Positions 1 to 44,589 of a stretch of DNA of 64,000 nucleotides are shown here, piece by piece. The notes under the pieces were generated by a model that saw nothing but the letters and a program-made list of their open reading frames with translations, was not told where the DNA came from and ran no database searches. The stretch's first letter is position 1; every line of letters begins with the position of its first letter. Origin of the DNA: Callorhinchus milii (taxonomy: Eukaryota); contig NW_024704742.1 in assembly GCF_018977255.1 (NCBI RefSeq), forward strand, positions 8,124,001-8,188,000, written 5' to 3'. The translations under genes and the position numbers were made by a program.

Positions 1-66
1 CTGAGGCTTCAGATTCAGCTAATGGAATAGACTTTGACTGTGCACGGTTACTGGGACCGTAATCAC
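1..66 (-). CDS. CENPC: Probable CENP-C duplicated exon (B2), truncated by window edge
   Basis: Identical to 3053-3118, with the same acceptor. Confidence 0.62.
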
Positions 67-132
67 CTGCAAAGAGCAGGACAAATGAGGGATTGCATCG
101 TCTCAATCATATTTTAGAAATATACAGTGAAA

Positions 133-452
133 ATAATAATAATAATCCTTGCATTTGATATAGAGTCTTATCAAGTCTTCGAGACGTCTGAAAGCACTTC
201 ACAGAATACACTGTGGAGTGAATTGACTATATTTTGTGGGCAAAACACAGCAGTCAATTGCGCACAGCAGTGTCCCACAAACAATCGTGGATTGAGTGAC
301 CACATTTTTTTTGCAAGGAAGGAATTATTACCCCCGGAAAAGCGATCTGCCAATCGACTAACAAGCGGGTTCCAACTTACTGCTGGGAAACAGAGGCGTG
401 TGGTGTAAGGAAACTTGCCCAGTGTTTTGCCCTGCCAGGAATAGAACCCAAC
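133..452 (-). mobile_element. tRNA-derived SINE (5'-truncated); duplicate at 3181-3500
   Basis: Family body plus (ATT)n tail. Confidence 0.88.
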
Positions 453-909
453 TTTGCCTGATATGCTACTTATTTCAACCTCAATACAAAAATGAAATAA
501 TGAACTAAATGAAGTACATTTGTTAAGAGAACAGCTTGCAAATATAAAGCACTGGTAAGACCTGACAGAGCTTGTACAACTACAGTAGTTCTATCCTATC
601 CACTGGAGCTTTGGTTAGAGTGGATATCTACACCAGGCAGACAGGCTGGTCAACCATCAACTATTAATGTGACCAGCCAACAAAATAAACCTATTACACA
701 TTACAATATATTTTGTGAAGCACTTTGAGATGTCTTGAAGACATGATAAGGGGCTGTATCAAATGCAAGGATTATTATTATCAATAGTAAATAAATGAAC
801 CAAAAGTGCAGTGGTGTCCGGTGAAATGTCACCCACCAAATAATGGATCAAAATGTCTTTAACTTTTAATATAAAAAGCTCATTTAAGTGAAAAATAAAA
901 ATCAATTAC

Positions 910-1367
910 CTGATGGTTTTGTATTTTGCGTTCTGGTTTCTGCACTTGGATCCGGACTACCAGGTCTACCAGACCTTTTTTTATACCTTTCTGTGGGGCA
1001 ATTTATAGACCCTCGAGATGCAGACGGTCTCTTAAGAGACGCTTTGGAGTTTTTAGCTTGGCTACCATTCTCGACATAGACAGGAGGCTCTTCCTGCAAA
1101 TTCTCCTGATCTTCCTCCTGATCCTCTACTTCGGGCATAGCCACAGGTGTTTTTTGGGGATGCTTTCGGGGTCTTCCACGCTTCTTAGGCACGCTGGAAT
1201 TCTTTCCTTGCTTAACCGGCTTCCTGCTTATCACCTTGCCTTTTCTGACGTGCAACTCAGAGCAGGAGCTCTTGGGGTCCTCCCACATCTCACGCTCAGA
1301 TTCGTTCAACATTGGTGTTGAAGTCCTGAAAACAGTGTGTTTTGATGGTGGAGGCGTAACAGCAGGT
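910..1367 (-). CDS. CENPC: Probable CENP-C duplicated exon (A') with AT-hook
   Basis: PAVTPPPSKH...PKKRGRPRKHP...KPS(G); same ctttcacag acceptor, phases and terminal peptides as exon A. Confidence 0.68.
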
Positions 1368-2931
1368 CTGTGAAAGCCATGATTTATTTTTTTTAATGAA
1401 AATAATTTAAAAGCTTTATTATTAGCCATAATAATAATATGCTCATTAATCTCAACTTTTCTTAACACAGTAAAACACCAATAACTCGTCACTCCAAGGA
1501 AAAAAGTGCTGAGTGACTAGTTATCCGGGGTGGCCTATCTTGTGACTGGTGCGAGCAATCAGTGGCGGTTGGGCGCACATACACTGTAGAGGCCACTGGT
1601 CTATTGAAGGCCCACGGTATGGCCTCCTGCCCTATCTGGTCACATGTGGGATGCAAGTCAGGAGAGGGAAGCCTCAGAGACGAAGGTCTCTGCAATGGAT
1701 CTGACCATGTGGGCCCAACTTCCTCCGAGCACCTGCACCAGTCACAGGGTAGGGTGGGAGGCCTCTGGAATACAAGATGGCATCTTATAGGACAAGTTAT
1801 CTCATCAATTTTACATTGTAAGTACTTACAAGAGTTTCTGGAATGCGACAAGTTACATGTTAAGTGGATTGACAAATAAGTAACTAATTAAGATCGCTGC
1901 CTCCCTTGCGACTTAACTCTACCCTCCCCATCCCCATCCCTCCCGATCCCAACCACCAGCTCAGGTGTGGGTCCCTGACTGTCCAGCATTTTGGGACGTC
2001 TTCCTGACATGAAAGGCGCTAAACATATGTAATTTGTTGTTGTTGCTGTAAAGCAAAGTACCTTATTAACGTTGTATGGGAAGCTGCCAGGGTATTGGCA
2101 GTATGGCAGGATAACTACTGACAAGTTATGCCAGGGTGTTGTGATCAGGAGTTAACTGGGACAAGCTTTTCCTTGTTTTCCAGTAAACTATTTGCTCACC
2201 ACCGATACTTGCCAAGGAAGATACAAGTTAGTGTTAGTTGACAGCCGATGTGCAGATATAGACTATGAATAGCAATAACAGCAAATCAAGCTCCTCTCTC
2301 CTCAGTAAAGATTAATTTGCAAGGAACAGTTTTTTGTATTCTAGTCTGAACTTGACAAGATATGACAACAGAGGTTAAAAGCACATACAAGGAACATATG
2401 CATTTTGGATGCAGCTCAATTATTTTTTGCAAAAAGCAACAAGGAGCCTGAAATTTATAAATCCAGGGAGTCATAATGTGCATATGACTCCTCCTCAAAC
2501 TCAAAACGATCGACGATCTTCCTCGACCCGCTGCAAATTTCTAACGTGTTATACTTTTATTCCATGTTACCCACTCACATACCTGGACCATCACTGACAT
2601 CATTCTCTCTATGAAATGGTATATTTTTTAAATTAGTTGTAATAATAATAATAAACCTTGCATTTGATAAAGCGCCTTATCACGTCTGAGCTTTGAAATA
2701 AGTGCAGTGACTTTATCTTTTGTAGGTGAACCAGCAGTCAATTTCCACACAGCAATGTCCTGCAAAATGACCAATTTTAACAACCCCCAAAACCACTGCA
2801 CAATAACAGAATTGAACCGTAATTACAGACCCATAAAATCCAAACCCGCACTATGATTAGAAAAAATGACCTCACCTTCACCTGAAGCCCCAAATTGAAA
2901 GCATATTTCTCAAGGGCATAAACTTTCATAC

Positions 2932-3118
2932 CTTTTTGATTTAATCGTTATTGGATTTCTTGAAGGAGTTGAAGATGATTTTCCAGAAATTACGTATTTT
3001 TTCCGATTCTCCAGCTCAACGACTTGGTCGTTTTCATCATCATTCCCGCCTTCTGAGGCTTCAGATTCAGCTAATGGAATAGACTTTGACTGTGCACGGT
3101 TACTGGGACCGTAATCAC
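2932..3118 (-). CDS. CENPC: Probable CENP-C duplicated exon (B1)
   Basis: GDYGPSNRAQSKSIPLAESEASEGGNDDENDQVVELE...SSTPSRNPITIKSK(R); phase 1-2. Confidence 0.68.
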
Positions 3119-3904
3119 CTGCAAAGAGCAGGACAAATGAGTGATTCGTCTCAATCATATTTTAGAAATATACAGTCAAAATAATAATAATAATCCTTGC
3201 ATTTGATATAGAGTCTTATCAAGTCTTCGAGACGTCTGAAAGCACTTCACAGAATACACTGTGGAGTGAATTGACTATATTTTGTGGGCAAAACACAGCA
3301 GTCAATTGCGCACAGCAGTGTCCCACAAACAATCGTGGATTGAGTGACCACATTTTTTTTGGAAGGAAGGAATTATTACCCCCGGAAAAGCGATCTGCCA
3401 ATCGACTAACAAGCGGGTTCCAACTTACTGCTGGGAAACAGAGGCGTGTGGTGTAAGGAAACTTGCCCAGTGTTTTGCCCTGCCAGGAATAGAACCCAAC
3501 TTTGCCTGATATGCTACTTATTTCAACCTCAATACAAAAATGAAATAATGAACTAAATGAAGTACATTTGTTAAGAGAACAGCTTGCAAATATAAAGCAC
3601 TGGTAAGACCTGACAGAGCTTGTACAACTACAGTAGTACTATCCTATCCACTGGAGCTTTGGTTAGAGTGGATATCTACACCAGGCAGACAGGCTGGTCA
3701 ACCATCAACTATTAATGTGACCAGCCAACAAAATAAACCTATTACACATTACAATATATTTTGTGAAGCACTTTGAGATGTCTTGAAGACATGATAAGGG
3801 GCTGTATCAATGGAAGGATTATTATTATTATATTATTATAATTGGTCTACTTTTAGAGAGTTCAATCTACATCCACTTTTTTTTTTAAAAATTACGGTAT
3901 TCAT

Positions 3905-5144: not shown

Positions 5145-5842
5145 CTAATGGTTTCCTTCTTTTATCCACATCAAGCTTATCCATACCTGAAACTGTACCA
5201 GGTTGTTTTCCACACCTTGCCTTTGCAACATTTCCAGATGCCGGCAGCCTCTGAGGAGTCTTTTGGGATATTTTAGCTTTGTTTGCTTTCTCTTCAACAC
5301 TACAAGAAGGCTCTTCCTCCAGTTCCTCCACCACTTTGGTCATAGCCATAGCTGATGTTTTGCCCTGCTCTGCTCTTTTTCGTTCTCCCATTTTTGTGGT
5401 GCGGATGGGAGTTAGCAAACGCTTTGAACGGGGCAAGGGTTCATTTCCTTCCTCCTCTTTCTCCTGCTGTTCGTTTCTTTTGTTGTAATTTAGCTGACGG
5501 CTAGCTGGTACTTTCTGAGTCGCTCCTGGATTATTATCCTCACTTGCTTTCCTTTTTTTGCTCCCGGAATGTTTCCCGGTGGGATGAAGTCCGGGTTGAA
5601 CAGCAACCTTTTCCTGTACTGCTCCCTTTTTCCTTGTTTTCCCTTTCTTTGCTAGTTCTTTTTCATTCACGACGGACTTCTTTCTTTCTTTATCTGGCTC
5701 CTTATTTACCACCTTGTCTTTTCTGAACCATGACTCAAAGCAGAAGCTCTCATCATCGTTGATCTCAAACTCAAACTTGTTGTCGCTTGGTTTTATAGGG
5801 CTGGAGACAAGCTGTTTTGATGTCACTGGCAAAACAGCAGGG
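5145..5842 (-). CDS. CENPC: Probable CENP-C large basic exon (A)
   Basis: Contains FEFEINDDESFCFESWF, resembling recalled human EFIIDESDQSFASRSWI; K/E-rich; phase 2-1. Confidence 0.72.
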
Positions 5843-6297: not shown

Positions 6298-6447
6298 TTG
6301 GTTCGTAAAATGTGAAATGGCGGCTCCGTAAATTTCAATTTCTTCTGATTTTGAACCTTTGACGTTGATGGTTCAACATTCGTAGCTCGACATTTTTCAA
6401 TCTCCATGGGTGCAGGTTCCAATGTTTCACTTTTGTTGAAGTCAAGT
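6298..6447 (-). CDS. CENPC: Probable CENP-C exon
   Basis: LDFNKSETLEPAPMEIEK...QKKLKFTEPPFHILRT; phase 2-2. Confidence 0.68.
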
Positions 6448-7510: not shown

Positions 7511-8695
7511 ATTATTGGATTCAGTGTACCCACACAATACATTGCAAATTAATAAAGCACCGTTCATGTCAGGAGATTGTCTGAAAGTGCTTGGCACCAT
7601 AGCTGGGGGTAGGAGCTGAGGGGAAAGATGATCAAAAGCGTGGTCAATGAGGTACGTCTTAATACAGATCTTGAACAAGCCAGAGAGGAACTCTGGGATG
7701 AAGTTTCAGAGAGCAGAGCAGATTAGCTGAAATCCATCTGCCAATTGTGGGGCAGAAAAGGGCAGGAGGACATGAAGCATACCAGTGCTCGCAAAAGGTT
7801 GCTAGGTTCAAAGCAGTTCAGAGGTAAGGTTGGATACGACAGTGGGGGTATTTAAGGGTGAAAACTGGGATCTTGAACATGATCTGCTGGGGGATGGGGA
7901 ACCAATGGAGCCAAGTAAGGATGGGGTTTTAGTTTCGCTCATGGACAGGACAGGAACTGCAGAATTCTACCAATATAGAGATAGAATTGGCTAACATCAG
8001 GCTATATATAAATTCTCAATTAACGTCAATTTGGCTCACTTGGTAGTACTCTTTCCTTTGAGCTGACACACTACAATCATTAAAGTTCAGGTCCTGGGGG
8101 GAATGCTGCATTGTCACAAATGCCACCTTTTAAATGATGGCATGAACTAAAGCAAGTTCAATCTGTTCTTCAGGTGAACATTAAAGTTACTAAGGCAACA
8201 TTCAAAAGCAGAAGACTGCGTCTCGAATAATTCTCTAGATTGTTGGCTTTTCGCCTTCTTATTCTTCTTTGTGCTACGTGTAAAACAGTTGTGATATTTG
8301 CCTATAAAAGTGACGGCATGCAACACTGATTACCGTGAAGTGTTTACAAATGTTGACATTGAAGACAGTATAAAAATGCAGGTTCTTTCTTTGAATGTTA
8401 ATGTATAAACATTGTTAATATCAGTCTGTTGTAGAGGTGCTCACCGCAATTTTTTTAAAAAAAGTTTCTAGTTACATAAATGCCATTACCACAAGCTGGA
8501 AATAGTGATCCACAAAAGTAATGCAAACAGCAGTCATTTTTGATTGGTAAAATCAGGATGAATCTTTAGTGTGTTGATCAGGAGAATGGCTGCACAGTGA
8601 GAAAAGCTGGTGAACAACTGCTGCTAATGCTTTAGCTGGGAAACCTATAGATCACTGCTCAAATGACTTGTTCTGTTCAATTGGCTGTGACGTAC

Positions 8696-8990
8696 CTCAT
8701 TTTTGGTTTAAATTGTTCTGAGACTCTGAAAACGATTGGAGTGGAGCTCGCCAACGATTGCTCGGCATCATGGTTGCTCACTACTTTTTTCAGAGCGACG
8801 CAATCTGCTGTAGATTCTTTGGTCTCGAACTCAAGAAGACAGACGTCATCAGCTTGATTATCCATCTGGTCACTCTCATCATCAGTGGCCTCAGCTGGTT
8901 CAGCGATAACAGCAGCAGCTGCTGGAGGTTGAGGGGCAAAGCATGTTTGCAGGGGAGGTTCCAACAAGAATTCATTTGAACTCAGGCAAC
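8696..8990 (-). CDS. CENPC: Probable CENP-C exon (B0)
   Basis: GCLSSNEFLLEPP...EATDDESDQ...SSTPIVFRVSEQFKPKM(R); phase 1-2; junction KPKMR/LDFNK resembles recalled human KTKKR/LNFDD. Confidence 0.7.
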
Positions 8991-9544: not shown

Positions 9545-10605
9545 ACAACAACAACAACCAGATTACATTTGTATAGCGCCTTTCACATCGGGAGGTCGTC
9601 CCAAGGCGCTGGACAGTGTACAGCATCTCAGACCCGAGCTGGGGTTTTGGGGGTGGGGGGAGGGGAAGGAGGTGGCAAGGTCAAAGAGGAGGTTTCTTGA
9701 AGCGGGACTTGAAGGAGGCTAAGGAGGGGGCGAGGCGGAGTGACTGGGGATCACATTTGTGGATCACTATTTCCAGCTTGTGGTAATGGCATTTATGTAA
9801 CTAGAAACTTTTTTTTAAAAAAAATTGCGGTGAGCACCTCTACAACAGACTGATATTAACAATGTTTATACATTAACATTCAAAGAAAGAACCTGCATTT
9901 TTATACTGTCTTCAATGTCAACATTTGTAAACACTTCACGGTAATCAGTGTTGCATGCCGTCACTTTTATAGGCAAATATCACAACTGTTTTACACGTAG
10001 CACAAAGAAGAATAAGAAGGCGAAAAGCCAACAATCTAGAGAATTATTTGAGACACAGTCTTCTGCTTTTGAATGTTGCCTTAGTAACTTTAATGTTCAC
10101 CTGAAGAACAGATTGTACTTGCTTTAGTTCATGCCATCATTTAAAAGATGGCATTTGTGACAATGCAGCATTCCCCCCAGGACCTGAACTTTAATGATGG
10201 AATTCCAGAGGTTGGGGGCAGAGTGGCTGAAGGCTCTCCCGCCAATGGTGGGGCGGGTGGGTCGGGGGATGTGGAGGAGTCCGGACACGGCTGAGCGGAG
10301 GGAACAGGCAGGTTGGTAGGGGGTTAGGAGGTCTCAGAGGTAGGGTGGGGTGAGGCCATGGAGGGCTTTGTAGGTGAGAATCAGGATCTTGAACTGGATC
10401 CTCTGAAGGATAGGGAGACAGTGGAGTCGGGCGAGAGTGGGGGAGATGGGGTCACGGAGTTTGGTGCGGGAGAGGACACGGGCTGCAGAGCTCTGGATGA
10501 TCTGCAGTCTGTGGAGGGAGGAGTTGGAAAGGCCGACAAGCGGGGCTTTTGCATAGTCGAGCCTGGAGGTGATGAAGGCATGAACAAGAGTTTCAGCGGA
10601 CCAGG
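9545..10605 (-). mobile_element. L2 fragment split by the inverted insertion
   Basis: AETLVHAFITSRLDY...QRIQFKILILTYKALHG at 10199-10605; tail at 9545-9751. Confidence 0.88.
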
Positions 10606-11429: not shown

Positions 11430-11517
11430 CATTAATTTCCTGCATCTGGCCCGGAACCAATTTAAGTGTTTCAGCGTCTTCATGTAACGCTGCCAGTGAG
11501 ACGACGTCTGGCGGATT
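11430..11517 (-). CDS. CENPC: Probable CENP-C exon
   Basis: NPPDVVSLAALHEDAETLKLVPGQMQEIN; ttttcttag|; phase 0-1. Confidence 0.6.
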
Positions 11518-12489: not shown

Positions 12490-12572
12490 CTTTATGACTG
12501 AGTGAATATTTGCACCTTCCATCACAGGTATATTCTCTTTAGAACACTGAGCTTGTGCTGTGTATGTATGAT
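12490..12572 (-). CDS. CENPC: Probable CENP-C exon
   Basis: (D)HTYTAQAQCSKENIPVMEGANIHSVIK; phase 1-0, compatible with neighbours; AAG|gtgagc. Confidence 0.65.
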
Positions 12573-13387: not shown

Positions 13388-13470
13388 CTAGTCCTTTTAA
13401 GAAGTCTTTTAGGATGGTTGATTTATTCTCATTTTTCTGACAGATGACCGGCAAAGGGTTTTCTGTCAGT
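13388..13470 (-). CDS. CENPC: Probable CENP-C exon, N-terminal (Mis12-binding-like) region
   Basis: LTENPLPVICQKNENKSTILKDFLKGL resembles recalled human DINTEQGQNVLEILQDCFE; tttgcag|, |gtgagg; phase 2-1. Confidence 0.65.
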
Positions 13471-14894
13471 CTGCAAATTAAAATCAAAACTGTATTAGCC
13501 ACGTCAATATAATGATACAAGAGCAGCACTACAAATCTATTAAATCCAAACAATTACTCGAGGAGACAATCGTAACAAATTTACTATTACCAGAACAACA
13601 AAATTACATGTATAGAGCACCTTTCACGTCGGGGGGAAGTCCCAAGGCGCTGGACAGTCAGGGGTCCGGACCCGAGCATGGAGGGGAGGGGTGGGGTGGG
13701 GGTGAGGGAAGGCAGAGAGGTGTGAGGGAGACTGAAGGGAGGAGCACATGACGATGGTGAAGGGGTCTGCGAACTGACTTATTATAATTATAATTTATAA
13801 TTTCCACTGTATATTTTCTGGGAGAAACATACATTCAAGTGCTGTTGGAGTCACAGGAGATTGGGAAGAACCACTCCACTCGGGCAGACGGTAGGAACGT
13901 CTCACTATAAGAACGTGGTGTTCCGGTTTGCCTTACTGTTCAGTTATCTCCTCTCCACATGTGGCAGGAACTGTCTGCTATTCAGACTGGTAGGAAGCTG
14001 ATCCGTTTGGAACTATTGAATCAATTTTATTTTGTAAAGCTGTTGCTGTTTTGGAGGCTCACTGTGTGTGATTTCCCACATTTGCCTTTTAGAGTACATA
14101 AACAAGGGTAGAAGCGGTCTAGGGCGACGCAGGGTGGTTGAGCAGGCCGGGGGGTGGGGGGCTTGGAGTGATTTCTAACAAGAAGGTTGGCCATCGTTAC
14201 CCCCCCCCCCCCCCCCACTCAATCCCCTCCAGCCACAATGGCCGGTCCGGTTGCATCCTGTAACGGGACAATAACGTGTTGCAGTTCTTCGGGGGATTTG
14301 CTTCTTTTTTGAGATAATGCAAATATATAATTCTATCTACAAATATATGTGTATTTAAAATACAGCTTTCATGTAACTAATGAAAAAAAATAATCCTGGC
14401 ATTTGATAATAGCGCCTCATCACCTCTTTGAGACGTCTCAAACCGCCTCACAGAATATACTGTGAAGTGAATTGACCGTACGTATATTTTGTGGGCGAAA
14501 CGCAGCAGCGTCCCACAGACAGTCGTGGATCGAAGTGACCAACTTTTTTTTTAAAGGAATTGTTACCCCACATATTCTAACATTATTAGAATAACATAAT
14601 GTTATTACTAAATGCAGTTAGAAAGGGATTATCCTGCTATAAACCCACATGAATGTCAACACACCCAACGACAACAGAGGCTCAACCTCAGACTGCAGCA
14701 AAGCGCACCAAGGAAACGAGACACTTAGAAAACGATCAGCAACAATGTCATGCAACTGTCTGTCAAGCTGTGCTGTCACCAAGTTCTGGAGGACAACGGT
14801 TCTTCCCAATCTCCTGCAACTCCAACAGCACTTGAATGTATGTTTCTCCCACAAAATATGCACAAAATATACAGTCAATTCACTTTACAGTCAA

Positions 14895-38530: not shown

Positions 38531-39059
38531 TGTATCAGTAGGAGCCAAAGCACTTGGCCATGGTTGTGAGCGGAGAGAACAGCCAGAACTGGATTGTGGA
38601 AGGGCAGTTGAATAAGACGGACATTAGGGAAGACTGGATTAGTTTGGAGTACAGCATTATTGCACAGCACTGCATTTACATTCTGAACAGGGTTTTGCAA
38701 TGAACAACTAGGTCGGGATTCAGAACCGGGTTCAAAATAGAAGCCAAACACGCAACTGCTAAAGGTGCCAAATTACTGGATTATTTCTTCAAAATTATAT
38801 TCACCCACCCGGGAAAGGGAAACCACATTTATCTCAGATCGAGATTTGAATCCTTCTTAAAGAATAGCAGTTGATATCAATTATATTTTAAAGCAGATTC
38901 AAAGGCTCTAAAATAAGGCGTATTAATGAACACAGATAATTTGAATTCCTACTAGTTACTTTGAGAATTGCTTTGAGACAAGTTATGGTACTGATTATCG
39001 TTGGCTCCAACCGCAACAAGTCAATTTTGCCTTTTGACTCATTATAGAGACATACTTAC

Positions 39060-39182: not shown

Positions 39183-40989
39183 CTAGGATACAATGCAATA
39201 CAAAATGACATTTGTATAGCGTATAGGATTGACAAAAGTGAGGCAAAAAATGTGAAGCACAATCTTAAAAATCAAGATCTAATTTTCTTCAACAACCTCT
39301 ACATTTAGCAATGGGTCAGAGTCACTGATCAGCCCAATTTCAATAAGCAGTTCAAGTATTCAGAGTTAAAAAGTAATGTGATTAATACCTAAACAATAGC
39401 TTTTTGGGGGGGGAATTAAAAAACACCTGTTCAGAAATTACTATGCGTTTTCGATCCAATAAAAGAAAATGATCATATCTTTGAACTAAGAAAAAGTCAA
39501 CAAAATGACATGATTTCCCTCTTTTAAAAAACATTTGACAGCATTTTCTAAGCAACAATCAAAACAAAGCTACGTAGTAATTTTGCCAAACCAAGAAATA
39601 TCTGAAGCTGCAATTACAGAATTTAGTCATTCTACACATCAGAAAATTCCTGGCTTTTTACTGGTAATTTCACGTTTCACTTCTTCCAAAGCCACCAATT
39701 ACTTCTTATTTTACACAACTTCCTAAGTCTAAAATCAAACGGATTTAAAAGTTAATTGAGTGTGTGCTCCTTCTGATGTGTCCATGGATAAATGCTGCGG
39801 TTTAGTGTTACTCTTGGCCACACAAAACAATAAAACAATAAGCAATGGATTCAACTGCTGCTCTGTTAATCTCAACCAAGCACTAAACTGCAACAGTCAC
39901 AACATTGACTTCATGTCACTGTAGAATCCTAGTAACCAACATCAAACGTTGCTGGAAAAGGTATTTGTAGGCCAACACTTCTCATGTTCTTAGACCTTTA
40001 AGTCCTTTAAATTTAAGCTCATGTAGAATTGTTGAATATTCTTAAATTGTCTGCCTGAAACATCAAGTCTAAATTTTAAGTATTTTTCAAAATTCTGCAC
40101 AGGAAATGGTCTTAATAAGTCCAATGCACAGTCGTTCCACTTCACAGTGTATCCTGTGAAGTGCTCTGAGATGTCCTCCTAACAAGAAAGGCGCTATACC
40201 AAATGCAAAGATTCTGTATGCGGCCATGATGAATTTGGGGAAACTGGAGTTTTCAGAGAACGAGAAATTTCTGGTAAACCAAATCACCAACATATTGATT
40301 AAGATCACATCCACACTTTTGGAAAGGGTTGGAGATGGACACCATGAGAGACCTGAAAATTAGTGCAGGAGGGGGAATGTACCTTATAAAAAGATAATAG
40401 TAGAAAGATTATCTTGTGTTTTACATAGATACAGCAAGGGATCCTAATAATAAAAACAATAATACTAAACCTTGCATTTGATATAGCGCCTTACCACGTC
40501 CTTGAGATGTCTATAAAACATCAATCCTAGACATATATAAAAAAAAATTCCCTATAACAAAGATTCCTCTTGCTTGAAGTCGGGTGGAGCCGGTACATCA
40601 AATTAACAGGTTTAGCCACTTTGATCCAATGTGAGACACAATCAGTCTGTAGTTGTTTGACCCCAGGAAAGTAAATTACTGGCGTACATTCAGAAATGTT
40701 CAGTGACAACAGTATCAATACTGATTTGGGTCACGTTTGCAGATTCGGTGGAACCTGATGAATGGTTTCAAAGGAGACGGCAGATTGGATAGGTGCAACC
40801 GGTAAAGTTTAATCAACCAAACGTTAAAGTTTCACTGAGGTTTAGCGAGCGGAAACGTGACTTGTTTTGAGATTTTAATTGCTGATCTGTACGGCTGCTT
40901 CACCAATTCTACAACAGTAATATTTTCGACACAGTTCTAATTTTCTTCCCTCTACATCTGCTTAAATGCATTAACTTATGGTCAGCTAC

Positions 40990-41271
40990 AATAGAAGCCG
41001 AACACACAACTGCTAAAGGTGCCAAATTACTGGATTATTTCTTCAAAATTATATTCACCTGCCAGGGAAAGGGAAACCACATTTATCTCGGATCGAGATT
41101 TGAATCCTTTCTTGGGTATTTTTCAAAATTTTGCACAGGAAAATGGTCTTAATAAGTTAAGTCTAATACACAGTCATTCCACTTCTCAGTGTATCCTGTG
41201 AAGAGCTCTGAGATGTCCTCCCAACATGAAAGGCGCTTTACCAAATGCAAAGATTATTCATACGGCCATGA
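40990..41271 (+). repeat. Composite local duplicate of 38736-38857 plus 40080-40230
   Basis: Direct alignment by eye. Confidence 0.9.
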
Positions 41272-41682
41272 CGCATTCCCTCTACCTCTCCTTAAATCCA
41301 TTAACTGTATCTTGTAGTTAGATACAGTTCCTCGGGTGCTAGCCATCTCCAAGGATCTCACTCAAGTAGCAATCTACATGTGTGCTCCTGCGCCGTGAGT
41401 GCTGACAGGCTATTGGAATGTGCGTAGCTTCAGAACCAAGTCACATCCTGTTTTCCATCAACACCTTAAAGTAAAATTAATATTCTTATTAAAAGTACAT
41501 TCCAGCAGTTGGTATTGAATAGGAGCTGGAACCTTCCTTTTACCACCTCTCCCACAGGCAGAGAGGTCTAAGTAGGACCACTTGAAACTGTTGTTTATTT
41601 TTATTAAAAAAAGTGCAGTTCTGTTTTAATTAACATCTAAGATTTCTGTAATAATAACCTTTGGCATTTTTTTTCCACTTAC

Positions 41683-43962: not shown

Positions 43963-44250
43963 ATGGAGACAGCGGGGGCTAGAGGAGAGCGCGGGGGCTA
44001 GAGGAGAGCGCGGGGGCTAGAGGAGAGAGCGGGGGCTAGAGGAGAGAGCGGGGGCTAGAGGAGAGAGCGGGGGCTAGAGGAGAGAGCGGGGGCTAGAGGA
44101 GAGAGCGGGGGCTAGAGGAGACAGCGGGGGCTAGAGGAGAGCGCGGGGGCTAGAGGAGACAGCGGGGGCTAGAGGAGAGAGCGGGGGCTAGAGGAGAGCG
44201 CGGGGGCTAGAGGAGAGCGCGGGGGCTAGAGGAGAGCGCGGGGGCTGGAG
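43963..44250 (+). repeat. 19-bp G-rich minisatellite (AGAGGAGAGCGCGGGGGCT)n, about 15 copies
   Basis: Direct reading. Confidence 0.95.
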
Positions 44251-44589
44251 TAGTGCAGAGGGGAGAGGGGGGGCAAGGCACTCATTGTGTTATTTACCAG
44301 GATCCCCAACCTCAAAGATAACTCGGAGAAGTTTACAGGGAGAAGAGGGAGGAAGGGAAGGCGATAATAAAAATCAAAATAAGACTATACTAAACCTGAA
44401 TCCAGGGTTTGAAAAACTGGCGTGCGGAAAAATGAGCAATAAGCAGAACTTATTACCACTATAAATAGCTTGCTGCTGTCAAAAACATCTACTGACATAT
44501 CTACCAGTTAAACAGTCTCGTTCTAATATAAATAGTTTCAAGAATAGTAAATAGTAATACAAAAAAGACATTCAAAACGTCTGACTTAC

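What the first reader, a model, noticed from the sequence alone, without database searches (positions are those of the whole stretch)
1..3831. Recent tandem amplification of a frame-preserving two-exon CENP-C cassette
Seen: 1-781 is nearly identical to 3053-3831, including an exon and its acceptor, with an offset of ~3.05 kb and a breakpoint in a SINE (ATT)n tail. The unit carries exon B1 (187 nt) plus exon A' (458 nt) = 645 nt, phase 1 to phase 1, adding 215 aa per copy. Known: CENP-C evolves rapidly, and exon-pair duplications in its DNA-binding region are described in grasses. Inference: an ongoing modular expansion of a vertebrate kinetochore scaffold, possibly copy-number variable and relevant to centromere drive.
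Basis: partly seen in the sequence, partly recalled or inferred. Interest (0 to 1): 0.78.

Follow-up and report, generated by a model that had tools for sequence, protein, structure and literature searches.

The report
Doubled exon pair in chimaera CENP-C
The elephant shark's gene for the centromere scaffold protein CENP-C carries two tandem copies of an exon pair, itself the decayed remnant of a much older doubling of the protein's kinetochore-docking region that sharks, rays and some frogs still show as two recognisable motifs.

Summary
In detail: 1-781 matches 3053-3828 at 98.7%, identity ends in a SINE tail, and exons B1 (187 nt) plus A'1 (458 nt) add 215 codons, phase 1 to phase 1. The gene is Callorhinchus milii CENP-C: window exons match RefSeq XP_042192650 letter for letter, and that model has a cupin and one RxxxxPxxWW motif. 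It has two units, not an array. Copy-specific letters occur in four independent runs, so this is not a haplotype artefact. 'Recent' is only half right: the visible intron differs by 0.7%, but the A' copies differ at 25 residues plus indels, a mosaic that fits gene conversion. pN/pS is about 0.7, so there is no sign of drive. One spliced contig has a one-unit path; skipping, allele or assembler collapse is unresolved. In this chimaera the second copy lost the motif, carries an AT-hook-like core and was duplicated again. The scan noted an exon-amplified CENP-C-like locus in another genome (not checked).

The parts
1..66 (-). 5' part of exon B2 (second copy of exon B; runs off the window; exon A'2 follows off-window)
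   Evidence: 0 differences from B1; its 21 residues occur at 409 and 624 of P0001
67..781 (-). Duplicated intron upstream of B2, with a SINE-like copy at about 135-450 and a SINE 3' end at about 700-781
   Evidence: 5 substitutions and 2 indels against 3119-3828
757..782 (.). Breakpoint of the young duplication in a SINE (ATT)n tail; the last 21 nt hold 2 of the 7 differences and the common SINE state
   Evidence: p=0.014, post hoc; not bridged by any listed contig
782..909 (-). Intron stretch after A'1, single in the window
   Evidence: contigs of X1 and X4 cover 808-947 with 0 differences
910..1367 (-). Exon A'1 (458 nt, phase 2 to 1): basic, low in order-promoting residues; decayed paralog of exon A
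   Evidence: exact match to P0001 471-622; 39% aa over 72 residues and 66% nt against exon A with both splice ends alike
1163..1186 (-). AT-hook-like core KKRGRPRK, once per unit
   Evidence: Pfam AT_hook 12.8 bits, below the 17.4 cut-off
1247..1306 (-). Decayed counterpart of the DEFxIDE-type motif (docking Phe replaced by Arg; Cys in other records; Trp lost)
   Evidence: not detected by the motif HMM
1368..2931 (-). Intron B1-A'1; no remnant of the E6-type exon that sharks and rays have at this place
   Evidence: three-frame HMM search with E6-type profiles negative
2932..3118 (-). Exon B1 (187 nt, phase 1 to 2); homologous to the exon between the two modules in sharks and rays
   Evidence: elasmobranch-only profile hits both C. 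milii B exons
3053..3828 (.). Partner of 1-781 (5' part of B1 and its upstream intron up to the SINE tail)
5187..5842 (-). Exon A (656 nt as used; a second in-frame donor at 5145 gives 698 nt and is the end homologous to A')
   Evidence: spliced to B in contig 27 of X9
5728..5775 (-). FEFEINDDESFCFESW: DEFxIDE-type (CENP-LN docking) motif with the downstream SW
   Evidence: aligns with amniote and frog motifs; function of the human motif
6298..6447 (-). Exon E6 (150 nt, phase 2 to 2) with FTEPPF where human has the FxxLFL CENP-HIKM motif; not part of the duplicated cassette
8696..8990 (-). Exon E8 (295 nt, phase 1 to 2), possible ancient source of exon B
   Evidence: similarity to B weak only
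11430..11517 (-). Upstream CENP-C exon E11
12490..12572 (-). Upstream CENP-C exon E12 (holds the Met at which the database models start)
13388..13470 (-). Upstream CENP-C exon E13, missing from the database models
   Evidence: 57-61% identity to shark and ray CENP-C N-termini, E 1e-5 to 6e-5

Best explanation
A real, two-copy, head-to-tail duplication of the exon pair B + A' inside the C. milii CENP-C gene, layered on a much older duplication. Step 1 (paralogy shown; timing inferred): the exon block that encodes the CCAN-docking PEST region was duplicated long ago. Sharks and rays keep two copies. In the chimaera the second copy lost the E6-type exon and about 240 nt of exon A, the DEFxIDE-type motif decayed, and it now has an AT-hook-like core. 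Step 2 (two units shown; mechanism inferred): this motif-poor pair was duplicated again by unequal crossing-over, probably between SINE 3' ends. The pair is phase 1 to phase 1, so the frame survives and about 215 residues are added between the CCAN-docking exon and the single CENP-A-binding motif. Step 3 (inferred): exchange between the two units (gene conversion or further unequal crossing-over) has since made them a mosaic, near-identical around B and diverged in the 3' half of A'. Function (inferred): the cassette is a basic, probably disordered spacer with one AT-hook-like DNA contact per copy. The extra copy most likely drifts as a tolerated, near-neutral lengthening (about 55%) or adds DNA-binding avidity as in the grass repeats (about 35%). 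It should not add CCAN, MIS12 or CENP-A binding sites.
For: Window exons match P0001/P0003 exactly; these have units at 408-622 and 623-832. A second record, P0004, also joins A'1-B-A'2. It differs from P0003 at 6 of 866 residues, all inside the units and each equal to the other unit's residue., 4 runs laid of 24 listed: reference letters of the A'1-specific 3' half in X1, X4 and X5 (X5 contig 921-1144, 0 differences); B2-type letters at 2965/2967/2969 in X4 and X5; B1-type in X1 and X9; A'2-type 3' half in X9. Uneven divergence: 5/710 in the intron against 6/104 synonymous sites in A' (p=0.001; 21 listed differences pooled from two runs). A vs A': 66% nt over 447 aligned columns, both splice ends alike, score above all 300 codon shuffles. 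Two motif copies in 4 of 4 named elasmobranch species, grouping by position rather than by species (c1 93/91, c2 78/85; Mustelus c1+c2 together rejected, p-AU 0.011). An elasmobranch-only B profile hits exactly the two C. milii B exons (iE 0.0025 and 0.0003 in a 4-protein set). Composition: A' net charge +11 and +18, order-promoting fraction 0.16-0.17 against 0.41 in the cupin. AT hooks and RK clusters bind centromeric DNA in Mif2; the duplicated grass exons carry DNA/RNA binding.
Against: No listed contig bridges the 781/782 junction or the A'1-to-B2 splice (tables were flooded by SINE copies and cut), so tandem order rests on the window and on gene models. The DNA downstream of A'2 was not seen, so the SINE-SINE crossover is inferred from one side only. 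Mosaic letters in contigs and older models can also come from assemblers merging similar copies. Placement of C. milii A and A' relative to the elasmobranch copies is unresolved (55/57; 63/78 for an all-chimaera group and p-AU 0.22 for both alternatives), so an independent old duplication in chimaeras is not excluded. B-to-E8 similarity is weak (p 0.07-0.11; hhalign E 0.019). The AT hook scores below the Pfam cut-off. No binding was tested.
Confidence: 0.72

Rival explanations
1. Copy number is polymorphic, or the pair is alternatively skipped: one-unit and two-unit CENP-C coexist in the species. This adds to the main reading rather than replacing it.
For: Contig 27 of X9 (3401 nt) runs unbroken E6-A-B-A' with a B1-type exon, an A'1-type start and an A'2-type end (27 other letters, 33 gap letters), the path expected after unequal crossing-over inside A'. 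P0002 and P0005 are one-unit models, exactly 215 residues shorter than P0001 and P0003.
Against: Both genomic-looking runs laid (X1, X4) hold A'1-specific letters. One-unit models come from the same record set as P0004, which has A'1, so a gap in an older assembly explains them too (their origin is recalled, not shown). Contig builders collapse repeats and pick bubble arms independently (own knowledge). X4 shows the same letter mosaic in DNA. Only one run shows the path.
Confidence: 0.4
2. The extra unit was fixed, or is diverging, under positive selection linked to centromere drive, for example by tuning AT-rich satellite binding.
For: The 3' half of A' is much more diverged than the flanking intron and carries indels. 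Each unit has an AT-hook-like core that is absent from the four elasmobranchs. Positive selection was reported for duplicated CENP-C exons in wheat and barley.
Against: pN/pS 0.74 on 21 listed differences, not different from 1 (a partial count, and one or two changes sit beside an indel). Synonymous sites are as diverged as non-synonymous ones, which points to age and conversion. The AT-hook region is identical in the two copies. No other holocephalan sequence was found for comparison.
Confidence: 0.12
3. Assembly artefact: two haplotypes or a mis-joined repeat written in tandem.
For: The visible copies are 98.7% identical and the break lies in a repeat tail. No listed contig bridges the junction. 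Some models have one unit.
Against: In unique DNA, X1 contigs differ from the window at 5 of about 1970 positions and X4 contigs at 0 of about 1670 (table 8), whereas A'1 and A'2 differ at 25 residues plus three indels. A second, non-identical record has both A' copies in tandem. Letters of both copy types occur across four samples.
Confidence: 0.04
4. A very young duplication that joined two already diverged alleles (old polymorphism in A'), with no later conversion.
For: Intron divergence 0.7%, only a few times the allelic level seen in X1; divergence concentrated in one part of A'.
Against: Needs alleles about 6% apart at synonymous sites in a genome whose neighbouring unique DNA differs by 0-0.3%. 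An X4 contig over 2658-3209 has 16 differences in 551 nt, so other intron parts are older too.
Confidence: 0.12

Closest known systems
Vertebrate CENP-C (human 943 aa; Mif2/Cnp3 family, Pfam PF11699)
   Same: C-terminal cupin, an RxxxxPxxWW nucleosome-binding motif, a DEFxIDE-type motif in the PEST region, and an N-terminal exon similar to that of shark CENP-C.
   Different: No canonical second CENP-C motif (published for this species, PMC4830207). FxxLFL reads FTEPPF. Two extra B-A' cassettes of about 210-215 aa, each with an AT-hook-like core; human CENP-C has no AT hook (PMC5710141).
Grass CENPC exon 9-10 / 11-12 repeats (PMC549713; PMC2816676)
   Same: Nested history: an ancient exon-pair duplication, then younger lineage-specific ones, with loss or conversion. 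A shorter exon with an acidic patch followed by a basic exon, in the poorly conserved middle of the protein.
   Different: No homology tested or expected. Grass units are about 60 aa, were shown to bind DNA/RNA, and some show positive selection. Here the unit is 215 aa, descends from the CCAN-docking exon, binding is untested and pN/pS is about 0.7.
Elasmobranch CENP-C (Mustelus asterias, Narcine bancroftii, Amblyraja radiata, Leucoraja erinacea)
   Same: Two A-type exons separated by a B-type exon ending in KSKR/HSKG; one RxxxxPxxWW motif where the C-terminus is present.
   Different: They keep an E6-type exon in the second block and a recognisable second motif (weaker in Narcine, no Trp). 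No GRP[RK] core and no second B exon.
Budding-yeast Mif2 DNA- and histone-binding domain (PMC5710141)
   Same: An AT-hook core (GRPR) and Arg/Lys clusters in a CENP-C protein.
   Different: In Mif2 the hook adjoins the CENP-C motif. Here the hooks lie about 135 and 350 residues upstream of the RxxxxPxxWW motif and arose in a decayed PEST-exon copy.

Membership tests
CENP-C / Mif2 | C-terminal cupin dimerisation domain | tested here: met
   PF11699 60.6 bits (cut-off 29) in P0001; PDB 7x85, 7by0, 7xhn, 6o2d, 2vpv. Encoded off-window; linked through exact exon matches.
CENP-C / Mif2 | CENP-A nucleosome-binding motif RxxxxPxx[WY]W (central-region type) | tested here: met
   RHIRPPNQWW at 884 of P0001
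CENP-C / Mif2 | Canonical CENP-C motif within about 100-200 aa of the cupin (PLxYW type) | tested here: not met
   Only one motif match in 5 of 5 C. milii records and at most one in each elasmobranch record; agrees with PMC4830207. A lineage trait; it does not argue against orthology.
CENP-C / Mif2 | PEST-region DEFxIDE motif (CENP-LN) | tested here: met
   FEFEIND plus SW in exon A aligns with amniote and frog motifs (C. milii A was in the seed); motif definition. Binding not tested.
CENP-C / Mif2 | PEST-region FxxLFL motif (CENP-HIKM) | tested here: inconclusive
   FTEPPF at the aligned place in E6
CENP-C / Mif2 | N-terminal MIS12-binding region | tested here: inconclusive
   E13 matches residues about 29-59 of shark and ray CENP-C; the exon for the first 28 residues was not found by tblastn
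CENP-C / Mif2 | Centromere localisation | not testable with these tools
   needs an antibody or a tagged protein
Symmetric (frame-preserving) tandem exon-cassette duplication | Unit length divisible by 3, same phase at both ends, intact splice sites | tested here: met
   645 nt, phase 1 to 1, AG/GT intact
Symmetric (frame-preserving) tandem exon-cassette duplication | Both units spliced into one mRNA | tested here: inconclusive
   Models P0001, P0003 and P0004 join them; X5 holds the A'1-specific part and B2-type letters; no listed contig bridges the A'1-B2 splice
SINE-mediated unequal crossing-over (NAHR) | Same-orientation repeats at both ends of the ancestral unit and a chimeric repeat at the junction | tested here: inconclusive
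   SINE tail at the junction and at 3828; the last 21 nt look like another SINE copy; the far end is off-window
AT-hook motif | GRP core flanked by basic residues | tested here: inconclusive
   KKRGRPRK in both units; Pfam PF02178 12.8 bits, below cut-off 17.4
Grass-type DNA-binding CENP-C exon repeats | Repeat binds DNA/RNA; positive selection on duplicates | tested here: inconclusive
   binding not testable; pN/pS 0.74 on a partial count

The most novel reading that the evidence does not exclude
CENP-C of sharks, rays and several frogs (including Xenopus tropicalis) carries two working CCAN-docking modules per chain, from duplications of the PEST exon block, so each CENP-C could hold two CENP-LN (CCAN) units instead of the one known from human. 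The elephant shark shows the next stage: the spare module lost its docking residues, became an AT-hook DNA-binding spacer, and now varies in copy number or splicing. This would make CCAN:CENP-C stoichiometry an evolvable trait in vertebrates, testable in Xenopus egg extract.
Probability: 0.25. Interest if true: 0.72.

Novelty: new variant of a known kind. Interest (0 to 1): 0.45.

Why it matters
For the locus: it shows that grass-style nested exon-pair duplication also shapes a vertebrate CENP-C, and it explains why database models of this protein differ by exactly 215 residues and are misnamed (the two-unit RefSeq model is called 'serine/arginine repetitive matrix protein 1' and lacks an N-terminal exon). 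For kinetochore biology: the cassette led to a doubled DEFxIDE-type motif in sharks, rays and frogs. Human CENP-C binds one CCAN through this region, and I found no paper on the doubling in the held library. If both motifs bind, kinetochore stoichiometry differs between vertebrate groups, which matters for reading Xenopus results. The young duplication by itself is modest: two copies of a spacer with no sign of selection.

Tried and rejected
The window's genome is not held, so copy 2 could not be aligned at DNA level. Pfam found nothing on 8 single exons apart from one chance hit. No other holocephalan CENP-C was found: exon A, longer proteins, 2 hits of 1536 candidates; cupin region, 2 of 49; unit region, shorter proteins, 0 of 8000; the 50%-cluster search hides close relatives behind P0002. 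Run search: no RNA holder listed as on record; X5 and X9 are guessed RNA, and I treat X1 and X4 as genomic because they cover introns (inference). Laying at 88% likeness flooded the joint and loose-end tables with SINE copies (3100 joints and 167 other-letter rows not shown), so no junction was readable. Contig depths look roughly doubled over parts of the unit (for example X4 15.7 at 2011-2654 against about 8 in unique DNA), but the tool states that depth is not copy number; not used. X9 lists no contig with A'1-specific letters; contigs drop rare forms, so this is not evidence of absence. Self-BLASTP returned no off-diagonal hits even for P0001 (a method failure); replaced by an HMM. The full-length exon-A tree misaligned A', and the 71-column tree could not place the chimaera copies. 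B from E8: not significant. No E6 remnant in the B1-A'1 intron. The 5'-half vs 3'-half test mixed counts from different contigs and is not relied on. No fold or complex prediction was run: the region is compositionally disordered and no chimaera CENP-L/N sequences were held. Literature: 10 searches listed no paper on this duplication or on doubled DEFxIDE motifs, judged from titles and abstract starts for papers not opened; subscription papers and supplements (for example alignments in figure supplements) were not seen.
Full report
Observation. Window 1-781 matches 3053-3828 at 98.72%, with 5 substitutions and 2 indels, none in the 66 exon bases. The match includes non-repetitive intron and ends in the (ATT)n tail of a SINE-like repeat (label from own knowledge; the repeat is dispersed through the window). 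On the minus strand the exons are E13 13470-13388, E12 12572-12490, E11 11517-11430, E8 8990-8696, E6 6447-6298, A 5842-5187, B1 3118-2932, A'1 1367-910 and B2 from 66 off the window. B1 is phase 1 to 2 and A'1 phase 2 to 1, so the pair is 645 nt or 215 codons.

Identity of the gene. Exon A found 2 proteins among 1536 candidates, both Callorhinchus milii, at 100% identity. Translations of E11, E8, E6, A, B1, A'1 and the B2 part occur letter for letter in RefSeq XP_042192650.1 (P0001, 1319 aa) and its X1 isoform (P0003). These have a CENP-C cupin (PDB CENP-C, Cnp3 and Mif2 cupins) and one RxxxxPxxWW motif. Kral (PMC4830207; I read part 1 of 2 of the text) already proposed this protein as CENP-C and noted that its second motif lacks the tryptophans; the part I read does not mention repeats. 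The upstream neighbour is GAK.

Number of units. P0001 and P0003 have two units (408-622, 215 aa; 623-832, 210 aa) with 178 identities, 29 mismatches and 11 gap columns. B1 and B2 differ at 4 of 63 residues; A'1 and A'2 at 25 of 144 aligned residues. P0002 and P0005 have one hybrid unit and P0002 is otherwise identical to P0001. P0004 joins A'1-B-A'2 and differs from P0003 at 6 of 866 residues, all inside the units and each equal to the other unit's residue. So two non-identical sets of models contain both A' copies, and none of the 5 records has more than two units.

Is it real and expressed? Of 24 runs listed I laid 4. X1 and X4, two samples that cover introns, carry the window's letters in the A'1-specific 3' half. 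X5 has a 224-nt contig identical to 921-1144 and B2-type letters at 2965, 2967 and 2969, which X4 also shows. X9 has a spliced contig running E6-A-B-A'. In unique DNA, X1 contigs differ from the window at 5 of about 1970 positions and X4 contigs at 0 of about 1670, far below the A'1/A'2 difference, so two haplotypes written in tandem is very unlikely. Against this: no listed contig bridges the genomic junction or the A'1-B2 splice, because SINE copies flooded and truncated those tables. The X9 contig follows a one-unit path (B1-type exon, A'1-type start, A'2-type end; 27 other letters, 33 gap letters). That fits exon-pair skipping, a one-unit allele, or assembler collapse, and these data cannot separate them.

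Age and selection. The visible intron differs at 5 of 710 sites, but A' differs at 6 of 104 synonymous sites (p=0.001) and 15 of 352 non-synonymous sites; pN/pS 0.74, p=0.59. These counts use the 21 differences listed for A', pooled from X9 and X5; 167 rows of that table were not shown. An X4 contig over 2658-3209 has 16 differences in 551 nt. The unit is therefore a mosaic of young-looking and older-looking tracts. The simplest reading is an older duplication partly homogenised by exchange between the copies, which also fits the six cross-copy residues in P0004; assembler mixing can mimic the latter. There is no signal of positive selection. Two of the 7 differences lie in the last 21 nt before the break, where the 1-781 copy has the common SINE state (14 copies in the window) and the other copy a state seen once. 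This suggests a crossover inside a SINE 3' end, but the test was post hoc and the far end is off-window.

Origin of the cassette. A' is a full-length paralog of exon A: 39% identity over the first 72 residues, 66% nucleotide identity over 447 aligned columns with both splice ends alike and about 240 nt deleted. Exon A holds FEFEINDDESFCFESW, which aligns with the human-type DEFxIDE motif. That motif docks on CENP-LN through Phe and Ile, and FxxLFL just upstream binds CENP-HIKM (bioRxiv 10.1101/2022.01.07.475394, passages; PMC8245036, passages). In A' the Phe is Arg or Cys and the Trp is gone, and the cassette lacks the E6 exon that sits where FxxLFL lies. Each A' instead has KKRGRPRK, AT-hook-like but below the Pfam cut-off, in a basic sequence poor in order-promoting residues.

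Relatives. A whole-library search gave 95 hits; I named 10 clusters. An HMM seeded with one motif copy from each of 11 proteins was run on 87 held proteins of 500 aa or more and hit 58. Two copies were found in 4 of 4 named elasmobranch species (Mustelus, Narcine, Amblyraja, Leucoraja) and in 3 of 4 named frogs (Bombina, Discoglossus weakly, Xenopus tropicalis; one in Leptobrachium). One copy was found in echidna, budgerigar, every unnamed representative that was hit, and C. milii, whose A' copies are not detected. Elasmobranch copies group by position, so that duplication predates the shark-ray split. Between their two modules lie a B-like exon and an E6-like exon; an elasmobranch-only B profile hits both C. 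milii B exons, and the two E6 types are related (hhalign E 0.00018). A duplication shared by all cartilaginous fish is the simplest reading, but the trees do not place the chimaera copies. Whether the frog doubling is independent was not tested.

How it most likely works. Shown: two in-frame units in the gene models, paralogy of A' to A, loss of the docking residues, copy-specific letters in independent samples. Inferred: the old second module became a spacer; because it is phase-symmetric and carries no essential motif, a second duplication was tolerated; it adds about 215 residues and a second AT-hook-like contact between the CCAN-docking site and the only nucleosome-binding motif. I put near-neutral tolerance at about 55% and added DNA-binding avidity at about 35%. 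AT hooks and basic clusters give Mif2 its preference for AT-rich DNA, and human CENP-C has no hook (PMC5710141, passages).

Comparison and novelty. The pattern works like the grass CENP-C exon repeats: nested old and young exon-pair duplications with loss or conversion (PMC549713, passages), in a region shown to bind DNA and RNA (PMC2816676, passages). It is not a member of that repeat family: the unit is larger, derives from the CCAN-docking exon, and binding and selection are not shown. Ten library searches listed no description of this duplication or of doubled DEFxIDE motifs; unopened papers were judged from listings only, and subscription papers and supplements were not seen. The scan's own notes held nothing near this place and one unchecked note on exon-amplified CENP-C-like loci in another genome.

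Verdict. Real, correctly described, and CENP-C; but two copies, mosaic in age, without evidence of drive, and with copy-number variation open. A new variant of a known kind; interest 0.45. The more valuable lead is the doubled CCAN-docking motif in sharks, rays and frogs.

Noticed in passing
window 8076-8522 and 9750-10198: A 449-nt inverted repeat, 98.2% identical and present only twice in the window, brackets coding exon E8 (8696-8990). The second arm appears to interrupt a LINE-like element, suggesting a young local inverted copy. It could fold the pre-mRNA around E8 (skipping would shift the frame) or allow inversion.
   Followed up: partly
window 13388-13470 and 12490-12572 (minus): The database models start at a Met inside E12, but E13 upstream is in frame and 57-61% identical to shark and ray CENP-C N-termini, so the models are probably N-terminally truncated. 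The first coding exon was not found; a candidate reading KKQIPRRTATRYC lies near 14250-14310.
   Followed up: partly
window 5145-5187 (minus): Exon A has two in-frame donors 42 nt apart. Models and the X9 contig use 5187; the unused one at 5145 is the end homologous to the A' donor.
   Followed up: partly
window about 22100-61640 (minus): The upstream neighbour is GAK (cyclin G-associated kinase; kinase and auxilin-type PTEN-like exons match PDB), in the same orientation. In human the two genes are far apart on chromosome 4 (recalled).
   Followed up: partly
P0009, P0011, P0014 (frog CENP-C): Bombina, Discoglossus and Xenopus tropicalis CENP-C each show two DEFxIDE-type motifs 330-430 residues apart. 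Discoglossus and echidna (P0008) also have a GRP[RK] core.
   Followed up: partly
P0006 residues about 795-925; P0009 about 1090-1330: Further internal repeats seen by eye in Mustelus (two ELRED...ENRTEKS segments) and Bombina (a repeat of about 120 residues after the central motif).
   Followed up: no
P0001, P0003 (RefSeq names): The two-unit models are named 'serine/arginine repetitive matrix protein 1'; shark and ray orthologs are often 'uncharacterized' or 'mst101(2)-like', which hides them from name searches.
   Followed up: yes
window 43965-44256; 40080-40235 / 41116-41277; 38736-38855 / 40990-41109: Other short local direct duplications in GAK introns (93%, 87% and 95% identical).
   Followed up: no
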